Shown here in pieces: positions 4,682 to 32,271 of a stretch of 41,477 bases of DNA. Each line of letters starts with the position of its first letter. Position 1 is the first letter of the stretch. The notes below the pieces were generated by a model. It did no database searches. It was given only the letters and a program-made list of their open reading frames with translations, and had not been told where the DNA came from. The DNA lies in IMG/VR virus record IMGVR_UViG_3300020016_000021, positions 1 to 41,477 of that record; one strand, 5' to 3'. The position numbers were made by a program, and so were the translations under genes. This DNA comes from a virus (Duplodnaviria > Caudoviricetes).

Positions 4682-4774
4682 TCCTAGACGGGTAAGACAG
4701 CTATTCCGGTTAACCCTAGGATAGAGTTCCTTACGTGAGGTGTTAACCGAAGTAGCTGTCTTACCCGTCTAGGA
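4682..4774. repeat. Long inverted-repeat element A (candidate replication origin)
   Basis: 22-bp perfect arms TCCTAGACGGGTAAGACAGCTA (4682-4703 and 4753-4774), extendable to 33 bp with 2 mismatches, 27-nt spacer; lies just upstream of the replicase gene. Confidence 0.9.
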
Positions 4775-4881: not shown

Positions 4882-7800
4882 ATGGAGATCACCGTTGCTC
4901 TCTCCGAGGAGCACTACTGTGAAGTCACCCTCGACTCGGCCATCTCGCCCGACGTCGCCATCTCACGCGGCTACCGCACCCTCACCGGGACCGGCGAAGA
5001 CCGGGACCTGCTGAACGAGCTCGGCTTCAAGCCGTACGTCTGGAACCGGGACGACGCCTATCCCGGCCTGCTCATCCCCATGCACGACGCGTCGGGCGCC
5101 GTGAACGGCCACCAGTTCAAGCCCGCGGTGCCCCGGACAGGCAAGCTCAAGCAGGACGGCACGTACGCGGTCGTCAAGTACGAGTCGCCCAAGGGCTCCC
5201 ACAACGTCATCGACGTGCCGGAGTACACCCGCAGCGTCCTTGCCGACACCTCGGTGCCCCTCTGGTTCACCGAGGGCATGAAGAAGACCGACGCGCTCGT
5301 CTCCCAGGGCCGCGCCGCCCTTGGCCTCACCGGGGTCTTCAACTGGAAGGACCGCGTCAACGGCATCGTCGGGGACTGGGAGGCCATTCCCCTCAAGGGC
5401 CGCCCCGCGCTCGTCTGCTTCGACGCGGACGCAGCCGCCAACCGGTTCGTGCAGCTGGCCATGGGCCGCCTGGGCAACTGGCTGAAGTCCAAGGGCGCCA
5501 CCACCGTCGGTTACGTGATCGTCCCCACCCACGTCGGGGAGCAGCCCGTCAAGGGCGTGGACGACTTCTTTGCCGCCGGGGGCACCCTCGAGGAGTTGGA
5601 GAAGGTCACCTCCACCACCCCGCCCGGCGCCTCGGAGAAGGACGCTGCGTTCACCGACGCCTTCCTTGTCGAGGATCTGGCCGACGCGCTCACCGGACAG
5701 TTCTGCTGGGCTGCGGGCTTGTCGTGGCTGCGCTGGAACGGGCAGGTCTGGAAAGCGGTTTCCGACGTCGAACCGCTGGAAGCCGTCCGCCTGTGGGCCT
5801 CTGCCCAGTTCGACGCGGTCTGCGACGAGCAGAAGCGGGACCGGTCCAAGCCCCTGGACGCCAAGATCTCCGGATGGCGCGCCGTCCTCGGCCGCGCCCG
5901 GTTGACATCCCTGCGCGACCTGTCCCGGGGCCTGCTCCAGCGGGACTCGGCCGAGTTCGACGGGGACCCGGACCTCCTCACGGTCGGCAATGGCACTGTG
6001 CATCTGCCGACTGGCAAGCTCCTGCCGTTCAACCCCGAGCACTGCATCACCAAGCAGGCCAGTGCCGACTACCGCGCAGACGCGCGCCACCCCAGCTGGG
6101 ACACGGCTCTGCGCGCGGTGCCCGAGGACATGCACGAGTGGTTCCAGGACCGCCTTGGGCAGTCCCTGACCGGCTACATGACCCCCGACCACATGATGGT
6201 GATCGCCCACGGCGGCGGCTCGAACGGCAAGAGCACCGTGATGGAGGTGGTCCGCAAGACTCTGGCCGACTACGCCGTACTGGTCTCCGACCGGGTGCTC
6301 ATGGCCAGCCCCGACGCGCACCCCACCGAGCTCATGGACTTCCGTGGCGCCCGGTACGCGCTGATGGAGGAGACCCCCGAGGCCCGCCACCTGAACGTGC
6401 AGCGCCTCAAGCAGACCGTGGGCACACCGACGATCAAGGCTCGCCGGATCCGCATGGACCCGGTGGAGTTCATCGCCTCTCACAGCCTGTTCATCAACAC
6501 CAACTACCGGCCGACCGTCACCGAGACCGACCACGGCACCTGGCGCCGCCTGTCGCTGATGCCTTGGCCGTTCACCTTCCGCAAGCCCGGACAGCCCCTC
6601 ACGGGCCCGTACGACCGCGTGGGCGATCCCGCGCTCGCGTACGCGGCCGGGGACGCGGCAGTGCGGTCGGCCGCGCTCGCATGGATGGTCGCGGGTGCGC
6701 GGGCCTGGTACGAGCGCGGGCGGATGATGCTGCCGGTGCCGGAGCGCGTGGAACGCGAGACGCGGGATTGGCGCGCGGAGACCGACCTCGTACTCGGCTT
6801 CACGGACGACATGCTCCGCTTCACCCCGGAAGCGTTCGTGCAGACGCAGGACATGCTCAAGGCGTTCAACGACTGGTCGGCCGACCGCGGTCACCGGCCG
6901 TGGAACGACCGCACGTTCGCCTCGAGGTTCGGCGCCCACGACGCGGTGCGCGCGGCCAAAGTCACGCAGGGCCGCTTCTCCGTCGGGGGGAAGCAGCAGA
7001 GGGGATGGATGGGTGTGGAGATCAAGACGAACGGCATTGACCCCTGGACGGGCGAGCGGGACGAACCCCCGGCGCCGGATCTGGCACCGAACGAGTTCAT
7101 GCACGAGGGCGACGTCTGGGAGATCACGGAGGTACCCCGCGAGGTTTCCCCGCTTGCGCCTGACGCGTGTGCTACGTGCTCCGACTACCGGTGCACCGGC
7201 TGTTCGGGCGACCCGGTCACGCTCGGCTTCGACCTCGAGACGGCCGACGCCGACAAGCTGTTCACCGGCGGTCACGAGGGGCCGTTCGTCCGGCTGCTGG
7301 GCCTGGTGGAGGACGGTACGGGCGGACCGTTCAAGGACGGCACCGCCATCGGCCGGTCCGCCGACGCACTCATCGGCTCGCTGGACTCCGCCGACGTCAT
7401 CTACGGGCACAACATCCTCGGCTTCGACCTGCTCGCCCTGGCCCACCACCACGGTGCCGACTACGACGCGCTGGCTGCGAAGGCCGTGGACACGCAGGTG
7501 CTGGCCAAGCTGATCGACCCGCCGCTGTCCAAGGGCATGCCGAACGGGTACTACGGCCTGGATCAGGTGGCGCAGCGGCTCGGCCACGAGGGCAAGACAG
7601 ACAACCTGCGGGACCTGGCCAAGCGCTACGGCGGGTACGACCGGATCCCGCTGGACTCCCGGGAGTATCAGGACTACCTGCGCGGCGACCTGGCTGCGAC
7701 CAGGGCCGTGTACGAGGGCCTGCGGATGCTGCGCATGGGCGCAGAGGGCAGCAGCCCGGACAACCGGACCATCGCCCACGCCGAGCGCGAGATGGAGATC

Positions 7801-9150
7801 GTGGCACTCCAGAACCGCATGACGCTCAACGGGTGGGCCGTAGATGACGTGCTCCTGCGCGAGCGGGTTGCGCACGAGGACGCGCAGCGAGCGGCCGCCG
7901 TGCAGACGCTGGCCGATGAGTACGGCATGCCGACGCACAAGCCGGACCGGTACAAGCTGCTGCCGAAGCGGGACTGGCAGGAGCACATGCGCGCCATGTC
8001 CATCACGGATGCCCGCGCGCTGCTGGTCAACGAGCCGCAGGCGGCTGTGGATCGGGGCATGGCCGAGCGGATCCCCGGCGAGCGGTACGACGCTCCGTGG
8101 GCCACCGACGTGGGCCGCGACGCCATCGAGCAGGCGTTCCGGGACGCGGGGGCGACCCACCTGCCCAGGACCAAGACAGGCGCCCTGGCGATGAGCTCCG
8201 ACGCGCTCGGTGACGAGCCCTGGTTCAACCCGGCCAAGGGCAAGTCGCAGCCCGGGCTGATGCAGCACTACGCGGGCAACGAGGCGATCGGCCGGGTGGC
8301 CGAGCTCGTGCTGCAGGCGACCGGGGCGCGGCGCAAATACGCCGAGCTGTCGAACTGGCTGACGGAGCACGGCCGCGTGCACGCATGGATCGGTGCCGCG
8401 CAGGGCAGCGGCCGGTGGGCGCACATCAAGCCGGGCATCTCCACCATGGGCAAGCGCGGCGCAGGCGCGGCCGAGCGCGACGTCATGGTGGCCGACCCGG
8501 GCCACGTCCTGATCACCTGCGACCTCTCGCAGGTGGACCTGCGGGCCATGGCGGGACTGTCCCAGGACGCGGCGTACATGGAAATCCTGCAGCCGGGCCG
8601 TGACGCGCACATGGAAATGGCAGGGGTGTACTTCGGGGTGCGCAACGCCGACACGCGGCAAAAGACGAAGGCGTTCAACCATGCGGGCAACTACGGGCAG
8701 GGCCCGAAGGCCGTCTCGGAGCGCACGGGTATCCCCCTGGCCAAGTGCTACGAGATCCGGGACGCGAAGGCCGAGGCATACCCCCGGCTGGCCGAGTACA
8801 TCGAGGAGATCCGGGAGGAGGCTGCGTCCGGCCGCCTGCTGGACAACGGGTTCGGGCGCCTGATGCGACCTGACCCCGAGCGGGCATACACCCAGGGCCC
8901 GGCCCTGATGGGCCAGGGCGCGGCCCGGGACATCATGTGCGAGTCGCTGCTGCGGCTGGTGCGGTCCTACCCGGGCGTGCGGCCGTACCTGCGGGCCATC
9001 GTTCACGACGAAGTGGTGCTGTCGGTCCCCGAGCAGGACGCGGACATGTGGCGGCTGAACCTGGAACAGGCGTTCACATGGGAGTGGCGCGGGGTTCCGA
9101 TCCTGTGCGACGTCTCCAAGGCGGCTTTCCGCTGGTCGGAGTGCAAGTGA
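4882..9150 (+). CDS. Fused TOPRIM (DUF3854-like) primase / D5-P4-type SF3 helicase / 3'-5' exonuclease / family A DNA polymerase
   Basis: TEGMKK, CFDAD, KGVDD (TOPRIM); GGGSNGKST (Walker A); FDLET, GHNILGFD, YLRGD (Exo I-III); DLSQVDLR, KAFNHAGNYG, IVHDE (Pol motifs A, B, C). Confidence 0.92.
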   Translation: MEITVALSEEHYCEVTLDSAISPDVAISRGYRTLTGTGEDRDLLNELGFKPYVWNRDDAYPGLLIPMHDASGAVNGHQFKPAVPRTGKLKQDGTYAVVKYESPKGSHNVIDVPEYTRSVLADTSVPLWFTEGMKKTDALVSQGRAALGLTGVFNWKDRVNGIVGDWEAIPLKGRPALVCFDADAAANRFVQLAMGRLGNWLKSKGATTVGYVIVPTHVGEQPVKGVDDFFAAGGTLEELEKVTSTTPPGASEKDAAFTDAFLVEDLADALTGQFCWAAGLSWLRWNGQVWKAVSDVEPLEAVRLWASAQFDAVCDEQKRDRSKPLDAKISGWRAVLGRARLTSLRDLSRGLLQRDSAEFDGDPDLLTVGNGTVHLPTGKLLPFNPEHCITKQASADYRADARHPSWDTALRAVPEDMHEWFQDRLGQSLTGYMTPDHMMVIAHGGGSNGKSTVMEVVRKTLADYAVLVSDRVLMASPDAHPTELMDFRGARYALMEETPEARHLNVQRLKQTVGTPTIKARRIRMDPVEFIASHSLFINTNYRPTVTETDHGTWRRLSLMPWPFTFRKPGQPLTGPYDRVGDPALAYAAGDAAVRSAALAWMVAGARAWYERGRMMLPVPERVERETRDWRAETDLVLGFTDDMLRFTPEAFVQTQDMLKAFNDWSADRGHRPWNDRTFASRFGAHDAVRAAKVTQGRFSVGGKQQRGWMGVEIKTNGIDPWTGERDEPPAPDLAPNEFMHEGDVWEITEVPREVSPLAPDACATCSDYRCTGCSGDPVTLGFDLETADADKLFTGGHEGPFVRLLGLVEDGTGGPFKDGTAIGRSADALIGSLDSADVIYGHNILGFDLLALAHHHGADYDALAAKAVDTQVLAKLIDPPLSKGMPNGYYGLDQVAQRLGHEGKTDNLRDLAKRYGGYDRIPLDSREYQDYLRGDLAATRAVYEGLRMLRMGAEGSSPDNRTIAHAEREMEIVALQNRMTLNGWAVDDVLLRERVAHEDAQRAAAVQTLADEYGMPTHKPDRYKLLPKRDWQEHMRAMSITDARALLVNEPQAAVDRGMAERIPGERYDAPWATDVGRDAIEQAFRDAGATHLPRTKTGALAMSSDALGDEPWFNPAKGKSQPGLMQHYAGNEAIGRVAELVLQATGARRKYAELSNWLTEHGRVHAWIGAAQGSGRWAHIKPGISTMGKRGAGAAERDVMVADPGHVLITCDLSQVDLRAMAGLSQDAAYMEILQPGRDAHMEMAGVYFGVRNADTRQKTKAFNHAGNYGQGPKAVSERTGIPLAKCYEIRDAKAEAYPRLAEYIEEIREEAASGRLLDNGFGRLMRPDPERAYTQGPALMGQGAARDIMCESLLRLVRSYPGVRPYLRAIVHDEVVLSVPEQDADMWRLNLEQAFTWEWRGVPILCDVSKAAFRWSECK

Positions 9151-10222: not shown

Positions 10223-10263
10223 CAAGAGGCCCGCCCCCAGATGAAGTAGGGGCGGGCCTCTTG
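10223..10263 (+). terminator. Intrinsic terminator-like hairpin
   Basis: 15-bp perfect stem CAAGAGGCCCGCCCC / GGGGCGGGCCTCTTG. Confidence 0.75.
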
Positions 10264-10299
10264 AATCCGACTCGCAGGAACATCATACGGGAGGTCAGC

Positions 10300-11937
10300 G
10301 TGAGCGAGAAGAGGCAGTGCCCCGAGTGCAAGGGGGAGTACACGGTCAACAAGGACAGCAGCCTGCGCAAGCACAAGCGTACCGACGGGTCTGAGTGCGG
10401 CGTGTCAGCCCCAGCGCCTACCGTGGCAGACGACAGGGACGACGACCCGGCGGCGCAGGAGCTCCTCGCGATCCTGCCGTTGGAAGGAGACGATGTGGAC
10501 TTCGACGACCCGGCCCCGGCGCACCTGCCCGTGATCAAGGGCCCCTGGTTCGGAGCGAACTACGCGGGCCGGTGCAGCAGCTGCGCGGACGCGATCTACG
10601 AGGGCGACCGCATCCGGTCGGACGGCCAGGGCGGGTACGAGTGCGAGGACTGCGGGGAGGACCCCGAGCGGATCGTGGCCGTGACGGAACGGGCCAGCGA
10701 CTGGCAGGGACAGGCGTCGGCCGCCGCGAAGCGCCACGTGGCGCTCCAGACGCTTGCGGCGGAGGGTCCCTCGGGCGACATGGCCTCGCTGGCCTTTGAG
10801 CGGGAGCAGGCGGCTGCGGCCCTCCTTGCCGACGAGTTCGACGACCCGGCCATGCCGGAGCAGCCCAAGCCCGTCATGAGCGTCTCGGGCCAGCCCAAGA
10901 AGGTGCTGCGGGACCACCTCGGGCGCTACGCCGTGGTGCTGCCGGGTCATACCGAGCTCGAGGTCTACAAGAGCTCCGGCAACCCGGTCGGCCGGACCCG
11001 GGCCACGACGTTCAACAAGTCGGCCACGGACAAGAAGAACATCAATGACTGGGGCAAGCGCAACGTCCTGATCGGCGCATCCCGGCGCCGCGACCTCGTG
11101 CTGCAGGCAGTGGGGCTGACGCACGAGTACGACAAGGACCGGCTGAACGCCCTCGTGGTGCAGCTCGAGGAGACCGCCGGATCGAAGGTCGGCAGCGATC
11201 TCGGTACGTACCTGCATGAGTTCACCGAGTACATGGACGCGGGGCTGAAAGGGCCTGGCGACGCCCCCCACGAGTTTCAGGCGTCGCTGTGGGCGTACGA
11301 ACGGGCGCTTGCCAACGCGGGGCTCGAGCCGATCCGCAGCCTGATCGAGCGGACCACGATCATCCGGGAGTACGGGTGGGTCTGCGGGACGTTCGACCGG
11401 GTCTTCTTCCACCGGCCGTCCGGGCAGTACATCATCGGCGACTTGAAGACCGGCAAGACCATGGACTACGGCAAGAACGAGACCGAGACGCAGCTGTGGA
11501 CCTACGCCCACGGTGTGAACCAGAACGGCATCTACGACTGGAACACGCGGACGTGGGAGGAGCCCCACACGCTGGACGACGTGAACGTCCGGCTGGAGGT
11601 CTCCGAGACGGTCGGTGTCGTCGTCCACATGCCCGTCCAGGGGCCGCAGGAAGGCACCGTGCAACTCCTGTGGGCTGACCTCGAGAGCGGGCGTGCGCAC
11701 GCAGAGGTATGCGCGGCCGTGAGCGCGCGGCCGAAAGGGAAGATGAAGGCGTGGGGTGACGGTCCGGCACCGCTTGCTCCGCCGGAGTTTCCGTGGGAAC
11801 TGCGGTTCGCTGAGGTGACCACGCAGGCCGAGGCAACCACCTTGTGGCGTCTGGCGAAGCATGAGGGGATCGCGGGCGTCCGGCTGAACGAGCTGATCGC
11901 GATTGCCCGGCTGGCCCTGGCAGAATCTTCTTTCTGA
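10300..11937 (+). CDS. PD-(D/E)XK (RecB/Cas4-like) exonuclease with N-terminal zinc-ribbon modules
   Basis: GTYLHEFTE, CGTFDRV, IGDLKTGK, QLWTYA; N-terminal CPEC..HK..C and CSSC..CEDC; GGAGG RBS before GTG 10300. Confidence 0.85.
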   Translation: MSEKRQCPECKGEYTVNKDSSLRKHKRTDGSECGVSAPAPTVADDRDDDPAAQELLAILPLEGDDVDFDDPAPAHLPVIKGPWFGANYAGRCSSCADAIYEGDRIRSDGQGGYECEDCGEDPERIVAVTERASDWQGQASAAAKRHVALQTLAAEGPSGDMASLAFEREQAAAALLADEFDDPAMPEQPKPVMSVSGQPKKVLRDHLGRYAVVLPGHTELEVYKSSGNPVGRTRATTFNKSATDKKNINDWGKRNVLIGASRRRDLVLQAVGLTHEYDKDRLNALVVQLEETAGSKVGSDLGTYLHEFTEYMDAGLKGPGDAPHEFQASLWAYERALANAGLEPIRSLIERTTIIREYGWVCGTFDRVFFHRPSGQYIIGDLKTGKTMDYGKNETETQLWTYAHGVNQNGIYDWNTRTWEEPHTLDDVNVRLEVSETVGVVVHMPVQGPQEGTVQLLWADLESGRAHAEVCAAVSARPKGKMKAWGDGPAPLAPPEFPWELRFAEVTTQAEATTLWRLAKHEGIAGVRLNELIAIARLALAESSF

Positions 11938-12207: not shown

Positions 12208-12241
12208 GGGGTTGACACCCGGGCTTCGGCCCGGGTAGTCT
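12208..12241 (+). promoter_or_regulatory. Promoter of the structured RNA locus; spacer is a cUUCGg hairpin
   Basis: GGGGTTGACA (TTGACA 12212-12217), N18 = CCCGGG-CTTCGG-CCCGGG, TAGTCT 12236-12241. Confidence 0.75.
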
Positions 12242-12245
12242 CCCT

Positions 12246-12850
12246 CTTGTCGGGCCAAGAGGGCGCGATGATGGGGCGCAAGACCTCGGCGGAGGGTAAT
12301 CGTGGCGGGTGTTGGCAGAGTGGCCGAATGCAGCCCGGCAGGAGTCGGGTAGTGAAGGTGGAATGCGTTCCGCCGGAACCATGGGTTCGAATCCCATACA
12401 CCCACAGGAGTCAAACGATGATCGGCATTTCGCAGGCCGGACTAGAGACTCCTGGCGACGGCCGTAAAACGTGGCGGGTGCGGGAACCGAAGGGTCATTC
12501 CAGAGGGGGCCGTACGGGGGTCATACCCCGAACACCCACGGATCTACGGACCTCGATATCAGGTAAGGCTACCTACCGGCCAAAGCCCTGGTTCGCTGAG
12601 AGATCCGGTGAGCGTCGGGCCAACTGTCCGGAAGGCCCTTTCGGGGAATGTCCACCCAACCTGATTACGGACTGAGAGGCTGGCCCGGTCGCATTCCAAC
12701 GGGCAACCCCGCACCACCCGACTATCACGCGGGTGGTGCGGGACCAAGGCAGTAAGGGCCCGGCGCCCGAGGGGGCGGGAGTTATTAGTGGACCGGGGAG
12801 CGGGAGGATTGGTACCCCGCACATCAAAACCGAACCAGAGACAGGAAACA
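12246..12850 (+). ncRNA. Candidate ~600-nt structured non-coding RNA (or RNA cluster)
   Basis: No credible CDS; many nested stems (12405-12454, 12470-12540, 12539-12607, 12616-12687, 12709-12741); contains a tRNA-like domain; has its own promoter. Confidence 0.65.
12306..12405 (+). tRNA. Atypical class II-like tRNA or tRNA mimic (8-nt anticodon loop, 30-nt variable region, no encoded CCA)
   Basis: Acceptor GGGTGT/ACACCC; D-arm GCAGAGTGGCCGAATGC; stem GCCCG/CGGGT with loop GCAGGAGT; variable stem GGTGGAA/TTCCGCC; T-arm ATGGG-TTCGAAT-CCCAT. Confidence 0.7.
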
Positions 12851-12855
12851 GAACC

Positions 12856-13353
12856 GTGACTTCTCCCGCAGACTTCCAGGACCCGTCCGCCATCCCGTCC
12901 GAGTTCGCTTCTGCCGACTCCTTCCGGGGGCGGCTCATCCTCATCGAGCCGATCGACTTCGAGCGCGACGTTCCCAACCAGCACAACCCGGGTCAGACCG
13001 CCGACCGCATCACGGCCAACGTCACCACGGTGGACGGCAAGGGTGGTGTGGAACAGTGGAGTAACCGCGTCAAGACAGGCGTCACCCTTCCCGGCCCGGT
13101 GCACACCGGTGTCTGGTTCTCCCAGGACCGCATCGTCAAGGGCGTCTGCCCCGGGCGTCAGCTGCGACAGGGCGCGCGCGTGCTGGCCGTCCTGGAAACG
13201 TACAAGCCGGGCAAGCCTGCCGGTGTCGGCAACCCGTGGGGCCTGACCGCTGCCACCCCGGAGCAGAAGGCGCAGGCCGCGAAGTTCCTGGCCGAGCTGG
13301 CCATCAACGGGGCCAGCGCCCCGGCGGGCGACGATGAGGAGTCGCCCTTCTAG
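12856..13353 (+). CDS. Probable single-stranded DNA-binding protein
   Basis: Beta-rich 165-aa protein ending in an acidic tail GDDEESPF; lies in the replication block. Confidence 0.6.
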   Translation: MTSPADFQDPSAIPSEFASADSFRGRLILIEPIDFERDVPNQHNPGQTADRITANVTTVDGKGGVEQWSNRVKTGVTLPGPVHTGVWFSQDRIVKGVCPGRQLRQGARVLAVLETYKPGKPAGVGNPWGLTAATPEQKAQAAKFLAELAINGASAPAGDDEESPF

Positions 13354-13403: not shown

Positions 13404-13446
13404 CGAAGCCCCCTCCCTGTCTGGGTGACTCTGGGAGGGGGCTTCG
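13404..13446. terminator. Bidirectional terminator between convergent early and late operons
   Basis: 14-bp perfect stem CGAAGCCCCCTCCC / GGGAGGGGGCTTCG. Confidence 0.8.
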
Positions 13447-29857: not shown

Positions 29858-29948
29858 CCTAGACGGGTAAGACAGCTACTTCGGTTAAACGCCCCTCGTG
29901 TAGAGAGCACTATGGCGTTAACCGGGATAGCTGTCTTACCCGTCTAGG
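29858..29948. repeat. Long inverted-repeat element B (second copy of 4682-4774)
   Basis: 21-bp perfect arms CCTAGACGGGTAAGACAGCTA identical to element A, inner CGGTTAA / TTAACCG. Confidence 0.9.
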
Positions 29949-31301: not shown

Positions 31302-31468
31302 GGTCCCTCCTCGAGTGCGGTCAGGCGGTCCATGTTGAGCAGCAGCATCACGAACAGTGACTCGGGGGTCACCTGAATGAGCCCGTCCAACATGAGCTGC
31401 AGCATGGCTTCGGCGGACGGGGGCAGCTCGGGCATGCCGTTGGCGATACGCCATTCGTCAGGGGTCAT
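31298..31468 (-). CDS. 56-aa hypothetical protein
   Basis: ATGA and GTGA overlaps on both sides. Confidence 0.6.
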   Translation of the reverse strand: MTPDEWRIANGMPELPPSAEAMLQLMLDGLIQVTPESLFVMLLLNMDRLTALEEGP

Positions 31469-32271
31469 GACGTCCCTCTCGCGTTCTGTCGGTCGGTCCA
31501 ATCGATGGTCTCACCCAGCACTACGGGCAGCATCGAGCAGCGGCAGTTGATCACTTCCTGCGCAGGGCCGCGCGGGTCGCCCGGGAAGAGCAGGCGCGCG
31601 CCGCCGACCACGAAGGGTTCGGAGAGCAGCGTGCGCTGCTGGTCGGCCGCGACATGGGTGGGGCGGGTGCGCATGTCCTCGGTCGACAGCCACTGCTTGA
31701 ACGGGGCCACGTCCCCCCGCTGCTCGGCTTCGATCTGCGCGCCCCGGTAGATGCCTGCGTTGACTGCGCCCATGGTTTCGGTGCGGGCAACGGTCATGGC
31801 TCTGTTCTTCCAGTACGGGGTGCCGGTGGAAGTGAGGATGACCTGGATTTCGTCACGCACACGGTCCAGGGAGTGACCCTCGGTGATACCTCGTTCAGCC
31901 TCACGCACCACGAGGGCGTATACCTCATCGGGGGTGTTGCTCATGCGGTTCCCGGCCGCGTTCAGATAGGTGGAGACGTACGGGTCGGTCGGCGGGTCCC
32001 CGGCGGCCGTGACACGGCGCCAGGCGGCCCCCAGGACCCCTTCGACCTCGGGGAGGATCTCGTTGTCGACCTGGCTGGTCCAGTAGCCCGCGTGGTCGCT
32101 GACGCGACTGGCGTCAACGCCCCCGTCGCGCAGGACGGCCGGGCGCACGCGGTCCAGGAAGCGGGTCACGCTGCCGAACCAGCTGCGGGCGATGCGCTGC
32201 TCGCCCTCCCGGATGAACGTCTGCGCGCGCAGGCGCTGCGGCAGGTGCGGGTCCTCACCCAGGTCAGCCAC
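31465..32271 (-). CDS. MuF-like (SPP1 gp7) minor head protein
   Basis: RA..VARTE, KQWLST.D.RTRPTH, FPGDP.GP..EVINCRC. Confidence 0.9.
   Translation of the reverse strand: MADLGEDPHLPQRLRAQTFIREGEQRIARSWFGSVTRFLDRVRPAVLRDGGVDASRVSDHAGYWTSQVDNEILPEVEGVLGAAWRRVTAAGDPPTDPYVSTYLNAAGNRMSNTPDEVYALVVREAERGITEGHSLDRVRDEIQVILTSTGTPYWKNRAMTVARTETMGAVNAGIYRGAQIEAEQRGDVAPFKQWLSTEDMRTRPTHVAADQQRTLLSEPFVVGGARLLFPGDPRGPAQEVINCRCSMLPVVLGETIDWTDRQNARGTS

What the first reader, a model, noticed from the sequence alone, without database searches (positions are those of the whole stretch)
12208..12850. Promoter-driven ~600-nt highly structured non-coding RNA locus
Seen: the genome is otherwise gene-dense, yet about 650 bp between 12202 and 12856 has no credible CDS. 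It has its own TTGACA-N18-TAGTCT promoter and is packed with nested helices: CAGGAGTC/GACTCCTG (12405/12447), CGGATCT/AGATCCG (12539/12601), CGGGCCA/TGGCCCG enclosing GTCCG/CGGAC (12616-12687), and a 12-bp stem CCGCACCACCCG/CGGGTGGTGCGG (12709-12741). It also has a GCAA tetraloop and two CTGAGAG T-loop-like motifs (12596, 12672). Known: some phages encode large ornate ncRNAs next to tRNAs (GOLLD, ROOL). Inference: this may be an undescribed phage large ncRNA built around tRNA-like modules. I cannot assign it to a known family by eye.
Basis: partly seen in the sequence, partly recalled or inferred. Interest (0 to 1): 0.85.

Follow-up and report, generated by a model that had tools for sequence, protein, structure and literature searches.

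The report
Shuffled phage cassette of tRNA mimics
This gene-free stretch of an uncultured soil phage is not one giant RNA but a promoter-led string of anticodon-less tRNA look-alikes alternating with small knotted RNA modules that are mixed and matched between related phages and match no Rfam family; host tRNA-processing enzymes likely cut it into separate small RNAs, probably decoys, but no transcript, cut or function has been measured.

Summary
The stretch is non-coding, + strand, behind one of five copies of the phage's early promoter. It is not one ornate RNA. In 43 array regions from related soil phages, nearly all between the exonuclease and an SSB-like gene, the locus is a modular array. 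tRNA-like shells keep acceptor stem, T-arm and a following purine-C (43 of 45 T-arms), never encode CCA, and rarely have an anticodon arm (3 of 59). Spacers fall into recurring families, reshuffled between phages. The window holds two shells, two copies of a small leader pseudoknot (162 of 162 pair cells kept), a conserved stem module, and a 134-nt RNA with two covarying pseudoknots (28/28, 40/40 pairs). No spacer matches Rfam. Likely mechanism: RNase P and a 3' nuclease cut at the shells and release end-protected small RNAs; a decoy role is a guess. Cultured phiC31-family phages carry one such shell, a testable proxy. This scan noted similar tRNA-punctuated arrays before in other phages. No expression data.

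The parts
12212..12241 (+). sigma-70/HrdB-type promoter (-35 TTGACA, 18 nt, -10 TAGTCT); its spacer is an 8-bp inverted repeat (12217-12236)
   Evidence: 5 copies in the genome; a -35-like hexamer in the first 60 nt of 36 of 43 regions; 4 of the other 7 are cut short
12242..12284 (+). 5' lead segment (start of transcript inferred near 12248); shared with L005, partly L039/L002/L009/L081
   Evidence: structure not resolved
12285..12306 (+). leader pseudoknot L1, copy 1: 3-bp stem 12285-87/12292-94, loop GGCG, second stem 12289-91/12301-03, then GGC
   Evidence: 162 of 162 cells pair in 27 sequences; first stem covaries (GC 13, UA 9, CG 5), second stem is invariant or GU to AU, so it is inferred
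12307..12404 (+). tRNA-like shell 1: 6-bp acceptor, Leu/Ser-type D arm, 6-nt loop in the anticodon position, long variable arm, canonical T arm, A then C, no CCA
   Evidence: sub-threshold tRNA-Sec hit 16.3 bits, E 2.4; not called by ARAGORN; same family in L004, L017, L048, L092
12405..12454 (+). spacer module A: 8-bp stem that starts at the C after the shell, invariant internal loop with tandem G.A-type positions (kink-turn-like, motif recalled), variable hairpin on top
   Evidence: 9 loci; basal stem invariant (no covariation), upper stem changes on both sides in 4 pairs
12454..12475 (+). leader pseudoknot L1, copy 2
12476..12538 (+). tRNA-like shell 2 (63 nt): 5-6-bp acceptor, degenerate T-like hairpin 12515-12530, no anticodon arm, A then C
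   Evidence: (repeats D2, D3); weaker than shell 1
12539..12672 (+). module B, 134-nt double-pseudoknot RNA: P1 12539-45/12601-07; PK1 12548-51/12626-29; variable P2; P3 12617-21/12634-38 and 12624-25/12630-31; P4 12643-45/12655-57; PK2 12650-53/12669-72
   Evidence: 147 of 147 cells pair in 7 sequences, 7 of 21 pairs change on both sides; PK1 28 of 28, 24 of 5040 partner permutations as good; PK2 40 of 40 in 10 loci
12674..12703 (+). module L2, likely small pseudoknot (12679-12692 stem; 12685-87/12700-02)
   Evidence: 48 of 48 cells pair in 6 sequences but only two one-sided changes, no covariation; precedes a shell directly in L048
12708..12742 (+). 13-bp terminal hairpin (terminator-like or 5' stabiliser of the downstream mRNA; inferred)
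   Evidence: a >=8-bp hairpin lies 12-125 nt before the next gene in 34 of 40 regions
12744..12855 (+). unassigned segment, then A-rich leader and ribosome-binding region of the next gene
   Evidence: no homolog for 12744-12815 among the spacers
10261..11937 (+). upstream exonuclease gene (context)
   Evidence: phrog_466, E 7e-50
12856..13353 (+). downstream gene, SSB-like by inference (context)
   Evidence: phrog_870 unknown function; model pLDDT 80; only weak matches to OB-fold ssDNA binders, best Z 5.0, rmsd 3.4, 96 aligned; acidic C-terminus seen in sequence

Best explanation
The locus is a promoter-led, non-coding cassette of anticodon-less tRNA-like shells alternating with small folded RNA modules that are exchanged between related phages; host RNase P and a 3' tRNA nuclease likely cut the early transcript at the shells, releasing both shells and spacer RNAs, which probably act as decoys against host defences or translation factors. 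Shown: the anatomy, the covarying pairs, the missing anticodon arms and CCA, the reshuffling. Inferred: transcription; RNase P cutting 5' of each acceptor (exact site uncertain by one base, because most acceptors are 6 bp plus a C.A mismatch); a cut at or next to the purine-C; protection of each released spacer by a stem at its first base and a pseudoknot at its 3' end. Least supported: the decoy role (about 0.35 on its own).
For: Shells keep what RNase P measures, the T-arm/acceptor stack (PMC4919913, passages), and free the rest: 43 of 45 canonical T-arms are followed by purine-C after 6 or 7 nt (background about 0.15 per position), 0 of 45 have CCA; 3 of 59 distinct shells (46-149 nt) have a 7-nt YU...R loop on a 4-bp stem. 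A helix of >=6 bp starts exactly at that C in 31 of 59 distinct spacers, against 1-7 at the six neighbouring offsets (spacers are not independent). Spacers are under structural selection. A strain contig from another study changes 7 paired bases, 6 of them between G.U and Watson-Crick (depth 3.7, so single changes may be errors), which fits + strand RNA rather than DNA. Modules are mobile: module A needs 4 gains or losses on a 19-row exonuclease tree and is not clustered (170 of 500 shuffles as low); L049 equals L006 plus an inserted spacer and shell shared with L039/L002. RNase Z cuts CCA-less precursors 3' of the discriminator and RNase P can cut them (B. subtilis; PMC1874595, passages).
Against: No cut, transcript or function was observed. 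The leader pseudoknot would leave only 3 free bases before the RNase P site, and 6-bp acceptors are one pair short. A C right after the discriminator is, as I recall, an anti-determinant for B. subtilis RNase Z, and a paired trailer may hinder it. 28 of 59 spacers lack the helix at that C. phiC31-family phages carry a single such shell with no structured spacers, and some shells are elaborate (120-149 nt), so shells are not mere cut marks. Module A's basal stem and L2 show no covariation. At least 9 related loci show no T-arm by my pattern (L019, L022, L024, L031, L035, L090, L091, L094, L099), so the array is dispensable in some lineages. Nothing here names a target for a decoy.
Confidence: 0.55

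Rival explanations
1. The shells are the only payload (decoys for tRNA-attacking toxins or nucleases, or charged but non-decoding tRNAs), and the spacers are maturation aids, some possibly self-cleaving ribozymes of a new class in the position that theta ribozymes hold.
For: Spacer stems start at the base after the shell, where theta ribozymes cut (PMC10879173, passages). Lone shells are conserved in 14 cultured phage records. Irregular tRNAs that are charged but not used in translation are known (PMC5389517 section 16). Module B is complex enough for catalysis.
Against: At least six unrelated spacer families occupy that position. No Rfam ribozyme hit in the window or 12 loci. A simple HDV-core scan gave 1 hit in 43 regions, and it is a T-loop. 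Modules L1 and L2 also occur with no shell after them (L014, L041, window).
Confidence: 0.2
2. One long unprocessed ornate RNA of GOLLD/ROOL type.
For: One promoter, about 600 nt, dense structure, phage context; GOLLD linkers sometimes hold tRNAs (10.1101/2024.12.08.627333, passages).
Against: No Rfam match; variable number and order of modules; no supported pair between modules; the minimum-energy long-range fold has ensemble frequency near 0.
Confidence: 0.07
3. A cis-acting leader (attenuator or mRNA-processing and stability element) that tunes the downstream SSB-like gene, with the shells as RNase P sites only.
For: No separate promoter before the gene; terminal hairpin in 34 of 40 regions; the phiC31 shell lies between two coding genes.
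Against: L048 carries the array away from this gene; two unrelated downstream gene families follow the same modules; several relatives have the gene with a short leader only.
Confidence: 0.08
4. A decaying cluster of ordinary tRNA genes with incidental hairpins.
For: Some relatives' shells pass the Rfam tRNA cut-off (6 RF00005 matches over the cut-off in 12 loci) or ARAGORN; folding energy alone is unremarkable.
Against: Decay would not spare T-arm, acceptor pairing and purine-C while replacing anticodon loops by tetraloops, nor keep covarying pseudoknots in spacers.
Confidence: 0.05

Closest known systems
Phage T4 RNAC and RNAD (small RNAs of unknown function; their place in the T4 tRNA cluster is recalled)
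   Same: Small phage RNAs of unknown function (PMC9697503, passages), as I recall released from a tRNA operon by tRNA processing.
   Different: T4's neighbours are decoding tRNAs in a fixed cluster (recalled); here the tRNA-like parts cannot decode and the modules are reshuffled. Sequence relation not tested.
Theta ribozymes (minimal HDV-like, gut Caudoviricetes; PMC10879173)
   Same: A structured RNA begins at the base after a phage tRNA 3' end.
   Different: No HDV core found, soil phages of likely actinobacterial hosts, non-decoding shells, many different spacer folds.
Allo-tRNAs and polycistrons of irregular tRNAs (PMC5389517)
   Same: Soil-derived strings of irregular tRNAs, some charged yet unused in translation.
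   Different: Those have 8/4 or 9/3 branches and real anticodon loops, linked to Acidobacteria and toxin-antitoxin loci; these are 6/5 or 7/5, mostly without an anticodon loop, with structured spacers.
GOLLD (RF02032, accession as given) and ROOL
   Same: Large structured non-coding stretch in a phage, tRNA-like neighbours.
   Different: Those are single RNAs with a conserved fold that form nanocages; no match here and no fixed architecture.
tRNA-like processing signals: mitochondrial tRNA punctuation, MALAT1 mascRNA, gammaherpesvirus TMERs (recalled)
   Same: It likely works like these: a tRNA-shaped element directs RNase P and RNase Z to release a neighbouring RNA.
   Different: Bacterial phage setting, several interchangeable cargo RNAs; no homology claimed.
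Single tRNA-like element of phiC31/phiBT1-family Streptomyces phages (unannotated, or annotated tRNA-Gly)
   Same: T-arm, acceptor, A then C, no CCA, anticodon arm with an inserted hairpin (4 of 5 examined) or a 9-nt loop (phiBT1).
   Different: 7-bp acceptor, one copy, no leader pseudoknot or spacer modules; match to this family is only the T-arm.

Membership tests
GOLLD / ROOL large ornate RNAs | Match to the Rfam covariance models | tested here: not met
GOLLD / ROOL large ornate RNAs | One RNA with a conserved overall architecture | tested here: not met
   module number and order vary across 43 regions
GOLLD / ROOL large ornate RNAs | Homo-multimeric nanocage | not testable with these tools
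   needs cryo-EM
Decoding tRNA genes | Acceptor stem stacked on a T arm with a canonical T loop | tested here: met
   shell 1: 6/6 and 5/5 pairs; shell 2 has a degenerate T-like loop
Decoding tRNA genes | 7-nt anticodon loop with U33 and purine 37 | tested here: not met
   0 of 2 in the window, 3 of 59 overall
Decoding tRNA genes | Passes ARAGORN or Rfam RF00005 | tested here: not met
   window; some relatives do pass
Decoding tRNA genes | Aminoacylation and use in translation | not testable with these tools
   bench assay
Theta / HDV-like ribozymes | Starts within a few bases of a tRNA 3' end | tested here: met
   modules A and B start at 12405 and 12539
Theta / HDV-like ribozymes | HDV nested double pseudoknot with P3/L3 core | tested here: not met
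   my own simple scan, from a recalled core: none in the window, 1 false hit in 43 regions; no Rfam hit; module B's covarying topology is different
Theta / HDV-like ribozymes | Self-cleavage | not testable with these tools
   bench assay
Allo-tRNAs (Mukai et al.) | 12-bp acceptor branch in 8/4 or 9/3 form | tested here: not met
   6/5 (25) or 7/5 (18) among 45 T-arms
rRNA-fragment mimics | Sequence likeness to a 16S or 23S segment | tested here: inconclusive
   blastn of 43 regions against one actinobacterial 16S and E. coli 16S/23S: best E 0.025, 4 hits on the sense and 3 on the antisense strand; models R1 and R2 do not hit rRNA loci L104-L106; structure-only mimicry not excluded
T4 RNAC/RNAD-type stable RNAs | Stable small RNA accumulating in infection | not testable with these tools
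   needs an infected host or heterologous expression

The most novel reading that the evidence does not exclude
A phage family has an RNA-only accessory cassette system: tRNA-shaped shells serve both as cut sites and as decoys, conserved joints let whole RNA modules be swapped like morons, and module B is a new class of double-pseudoknot ribozyme or ligand-binding RNA used against host anti-phage systems.
Probability: 0.25. Interest if true: 0.88.

Novelty: new variant of a known kind. Interest (0 to 1): 0.68.

Why it matters
It gives several uncatalogued, covariation-supported small RNA folds (a 19-nt pseudoknot, a 134-nt double-pseudoknot RNA) with predicted ends precise enough for a one-week in vitro test, and bears on an open question: why phages carry tRNA-like genes that cannot decode. 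It also points to an unannotated or mis-annotated anticodon-less tRNA-like element in phiC31 and phiBT1, laboratory phages in which deletion is easy.

Tried and rejected
Direct DNA searches found nothing in cultured phages (only T-arm-length or tRNA matches), and single-sequence scans of viral contigs failed; relatives came from protein alignments and motif scans. The genome-contig motif scan gave 17 matches, all chance by eye; L053 and L054 and 4 of 10 matches are also chance. Models of modules A and B were not found in 151 genomes sampled from an actinobacterial class (only 21-27 candidates scored per listed genome, so weak). Rfam hits in the region are all below cut-off: Plastid-psbl-rps4 E 0.11, STAXI E 1.1, tRNA-Sec E 2.4, Yar_3 E 8.4. 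rRNA mimicry: inconclusive to negative. By eye, module L2 resembles part of the SAM-I riboswitch and module D of relatives the hammerhead core (both recalled); homolog changes fit other pairings, and Rfam has no hit, so both were dropped. Module B shares only a topology with the ZTP riboswitch (recalled). Initiator-tRNA or tRNA-His mimicry (C.A end pair, G-C beyond it) fits many relatives, but the tally (C.A in 40 of 57) is biased by my scoring and the window's third pair differs. Sequencing runs: no RNA holder listed. Foldseek gave no significant match for the downstream protein. No Ro60-like or RNA-binding family among the 57 and 23 ORFs scanned (not every ORF). In one search a non-greedy pattern mis-placed PK2 in two loci (25 of 28); one search corrects it. 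The 'C' signature over-calls (false in L003, L005, L023, L026). The phiC31 genome paper is not held.

Full report
Setting. The window is a complete 41,477-nt virus record with head, tail, lysis and replication genes. Its nearest cultured relatives are distant actinophages: exonuclease about 34% identical to Streptomyces phages, capsid 41% to Actinoplanes phage phiAsp2; an actinobacterial host is inferred. The flagged stretch lies on the + strand between a 60-codon ORF after the exonuclease and a gene starting at 12856 that is SSB-like by inference only.

Observation. The promoter is one of five genome copies. The crossing 157-codon ORF is broken in relatives and in a strain contig. Perfect helices are in modest excess (10 against 4.1, 3 of 300 shuffles). 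Folding energy is weak evidence: z -3.35 with the promoter hairpin, -1.7 without, and 6 of 20 other windows are lower. ARAGORN and Rfam give nothing above cut-off.

Relatives. Alignments of the two flanking proteins and motif scans gave loci L002-L055 and L076-L116. From these I cut 43 array regions, the window included (L002 and L013 are two ends of one contig). Left out: repeat fetches of the same phage (such as L010, L011, L015, L016, L021, L029, L033, L038, L040, L046, L051, L052, L055, L093), chance matches (L053, L054, L107-L109, L112), truncated loci (L028, L032, L045), nine loci with no T-arm by my pattern (L019, L022, L024, L031, L035, L090, L091, L094, L099), L097 (T-arms present, layout not parsed) and L103 (its array was found only later). 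All counts therefore describe array-bearing relatives, several closely related.

Shells. Each array holds tRNA-like units. Taking every canonical T-arm without further selection, 43 of 45 are followed by purine-C after 6 nt (25) or 7 nt (18), and none by CCA; the two exceptions are inner hairpins of one large unit. A scored search found 63 candidate units; I dropped 5 doubtful ones and added 2, leaving 60, 59 distinct, 46-149 nt long, of which 3 have a canonical-looking anticodon arm; many have GNRA or 4-6-nt loops there. Some pass the Rfam tRNA cut-off; the window's two (12307-12404, 12476-12538) do not. Most have six acceptor pairs and then a C.A mismatch, so numbering is ambiguous by one base.

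Spacers. They fall into recurring families. L1, a 19-nt pseudoknot ending three bases before most shells, pairs in 162 of 162 cells over 27 sequences; its first stem covaries, its second is invariant or G.U to A-U. Module A (9 loci) has an invariant basal stem and internal loop under a freely varying hairpin. Module B (12539-12672; 7 full members, 3 more sharing at least the 3' pseudoknot) is the strongest result: 147 of 147 cells pair, 7 of 21 pairs change on both sides, slid controls give 30-53%. Four bases of its internal loop pair with a hairpin loop 75 nt away in five different sequence versions (28 of 28; 24 of 5040 permutations, relatedness not corrected), and its 3' pseudoknot keeps 40 of 40 pairs in 10 loci. 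These structures were derived from the same sequences, which inflates the paired fraction but not the two-sided changes. L2 (6 loci) is consistent with a pseudoknot but without covariation. A helix of six pairs or more starts exactly at the C after the shell in 31 of 59 distinct spacers, 1-7 at neighbouring offsets. A strain contig from a second study changes 7 paired bases; 6 move between G.U and Watson-Crick, the seventh lies beside two deletions (low depth).

Modularity. The regions span 231-771 nt and differ in content and order. The window and L005 (exonuclease 81%) share lead, A and B but have different shells. L049 is L006 plus an inserted spacer and shell. Module A is scattered on the exonuclease tree. 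L048 carries the array in another genome position. This rules against one large RNA.

Mechanism. RNase P recognises the T-arm/acceptor stack and cuts non-tRNA RNAs that present it (PMC4919913, passages); RNase Z cuts CCA-less precursors after the discriminator, and RNase P can act on them (PMC1874595, passages; B. subtilis). The shells keep these features and lose decoding, so I infer that the early transcript is cut into shells and spacers, the spacers protected by a stem at the first base and a pseudoknot at the 3' end. Against this: a three-base free leader, short acceptors, a C after the discriminator (recalled as unfavourable for RNase Z), and 28 spacers without the helix. The shells are probably products too: cultured phiC31-family phages conserve one anticodon-less shell with no spacers. 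I commit to a decoy role, because variable, exchangeable cargo behind an early promoter is typical of counter-defence loci (own knowledge), but nothing here tests it.

What is known. Closest are T4 RNAC/RNAD (PMC9697503, passages), theta ribozymes (PMC10879173, passages), irregular-tRNA polycistrons (PMC5389517, passages and section 16) and GOLLD/ROOL (10.1101/2024.12.08.627333, passages). It fails membership of each where testable, and works most like tRNA punctuation (recalled). Ten literature searches (listings and abstract starts) showed no description of this array or its modules; the library lacks most subscription papers, and I read no supplements (motif lists of PMC5737381, figure S6 of PMC5389517 and bioRxiv files could bear on novelty). 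This scan noted comparable tRNA-punctuated arrays in other phages but nothing similar in sequence; those notes are leads, not support, and one of them sharpened my reading that spacers are products.

Verdict. A real, previously uncatalogued modular small-RNA cassette; new variant of a known kind; interest 0.68, held back by the lack of any expression, cleavage or function data.

Noticed in passing
window 4682-4774 and 29858-29948: Two near-identical long palindromes (31-33-bp arms, 27-29-nt loops; arms match across the two sites up to 100%), one before the primase-polymerase gene, one between the protease-like and major capsid genes; they cause spurious MIR8742 hits. Possibly origin or protein-binding sites.
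   Followed up: partly
window 4882-9150: A 1422-aa ORF matching primase and DNA polymerase families in one chain.
   Followed up: no
window 1349-, 4407-, 9160+, 11944+, 12212+: Five copies of one early promoter; four continue with the same TAAGTCATCG box, the array's copy does not.
   Followed up: partly
window 12217-12236; L005 2880-2899; L020 1980-1998: The array promoter's spacer is a perfect inverted repeat with different sequence in three phages; may end the upstream transcript or bind a regulator.
   Followed up: no
L074 1146-1234 (phiC31, record about 31424-31512); L117-L120: Unannotated (or tRNA-Gly-annotated) anticodon-less tRNA-like element between genes 13 and 14 of phiC31, conserved in 14 records of the family.
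   Followed up: partly
L039 2156-2291; L002; L049: A 135-149-nt shell with three T-arm-like hairpins inside one acceptor stem.
   Followed up: no
L004 5597-5690, L006 5497-5590, L018; L004, L013, L017, L018, L027, L039: Further spacer families absent from the window (modules D and C), conserved across phages, without Rfam hit where scanned.
   Followed up: partly
L048 about 1250-1800: The same array placed away from the exonuclease/SSB-like pair, before a convergent hairpin and holin-like genes.
   Followed up: no
window 13404-13446: 14-bp hairpin without a T run between the converging early and late gene blocks, terminator-like.
   Followed up: no
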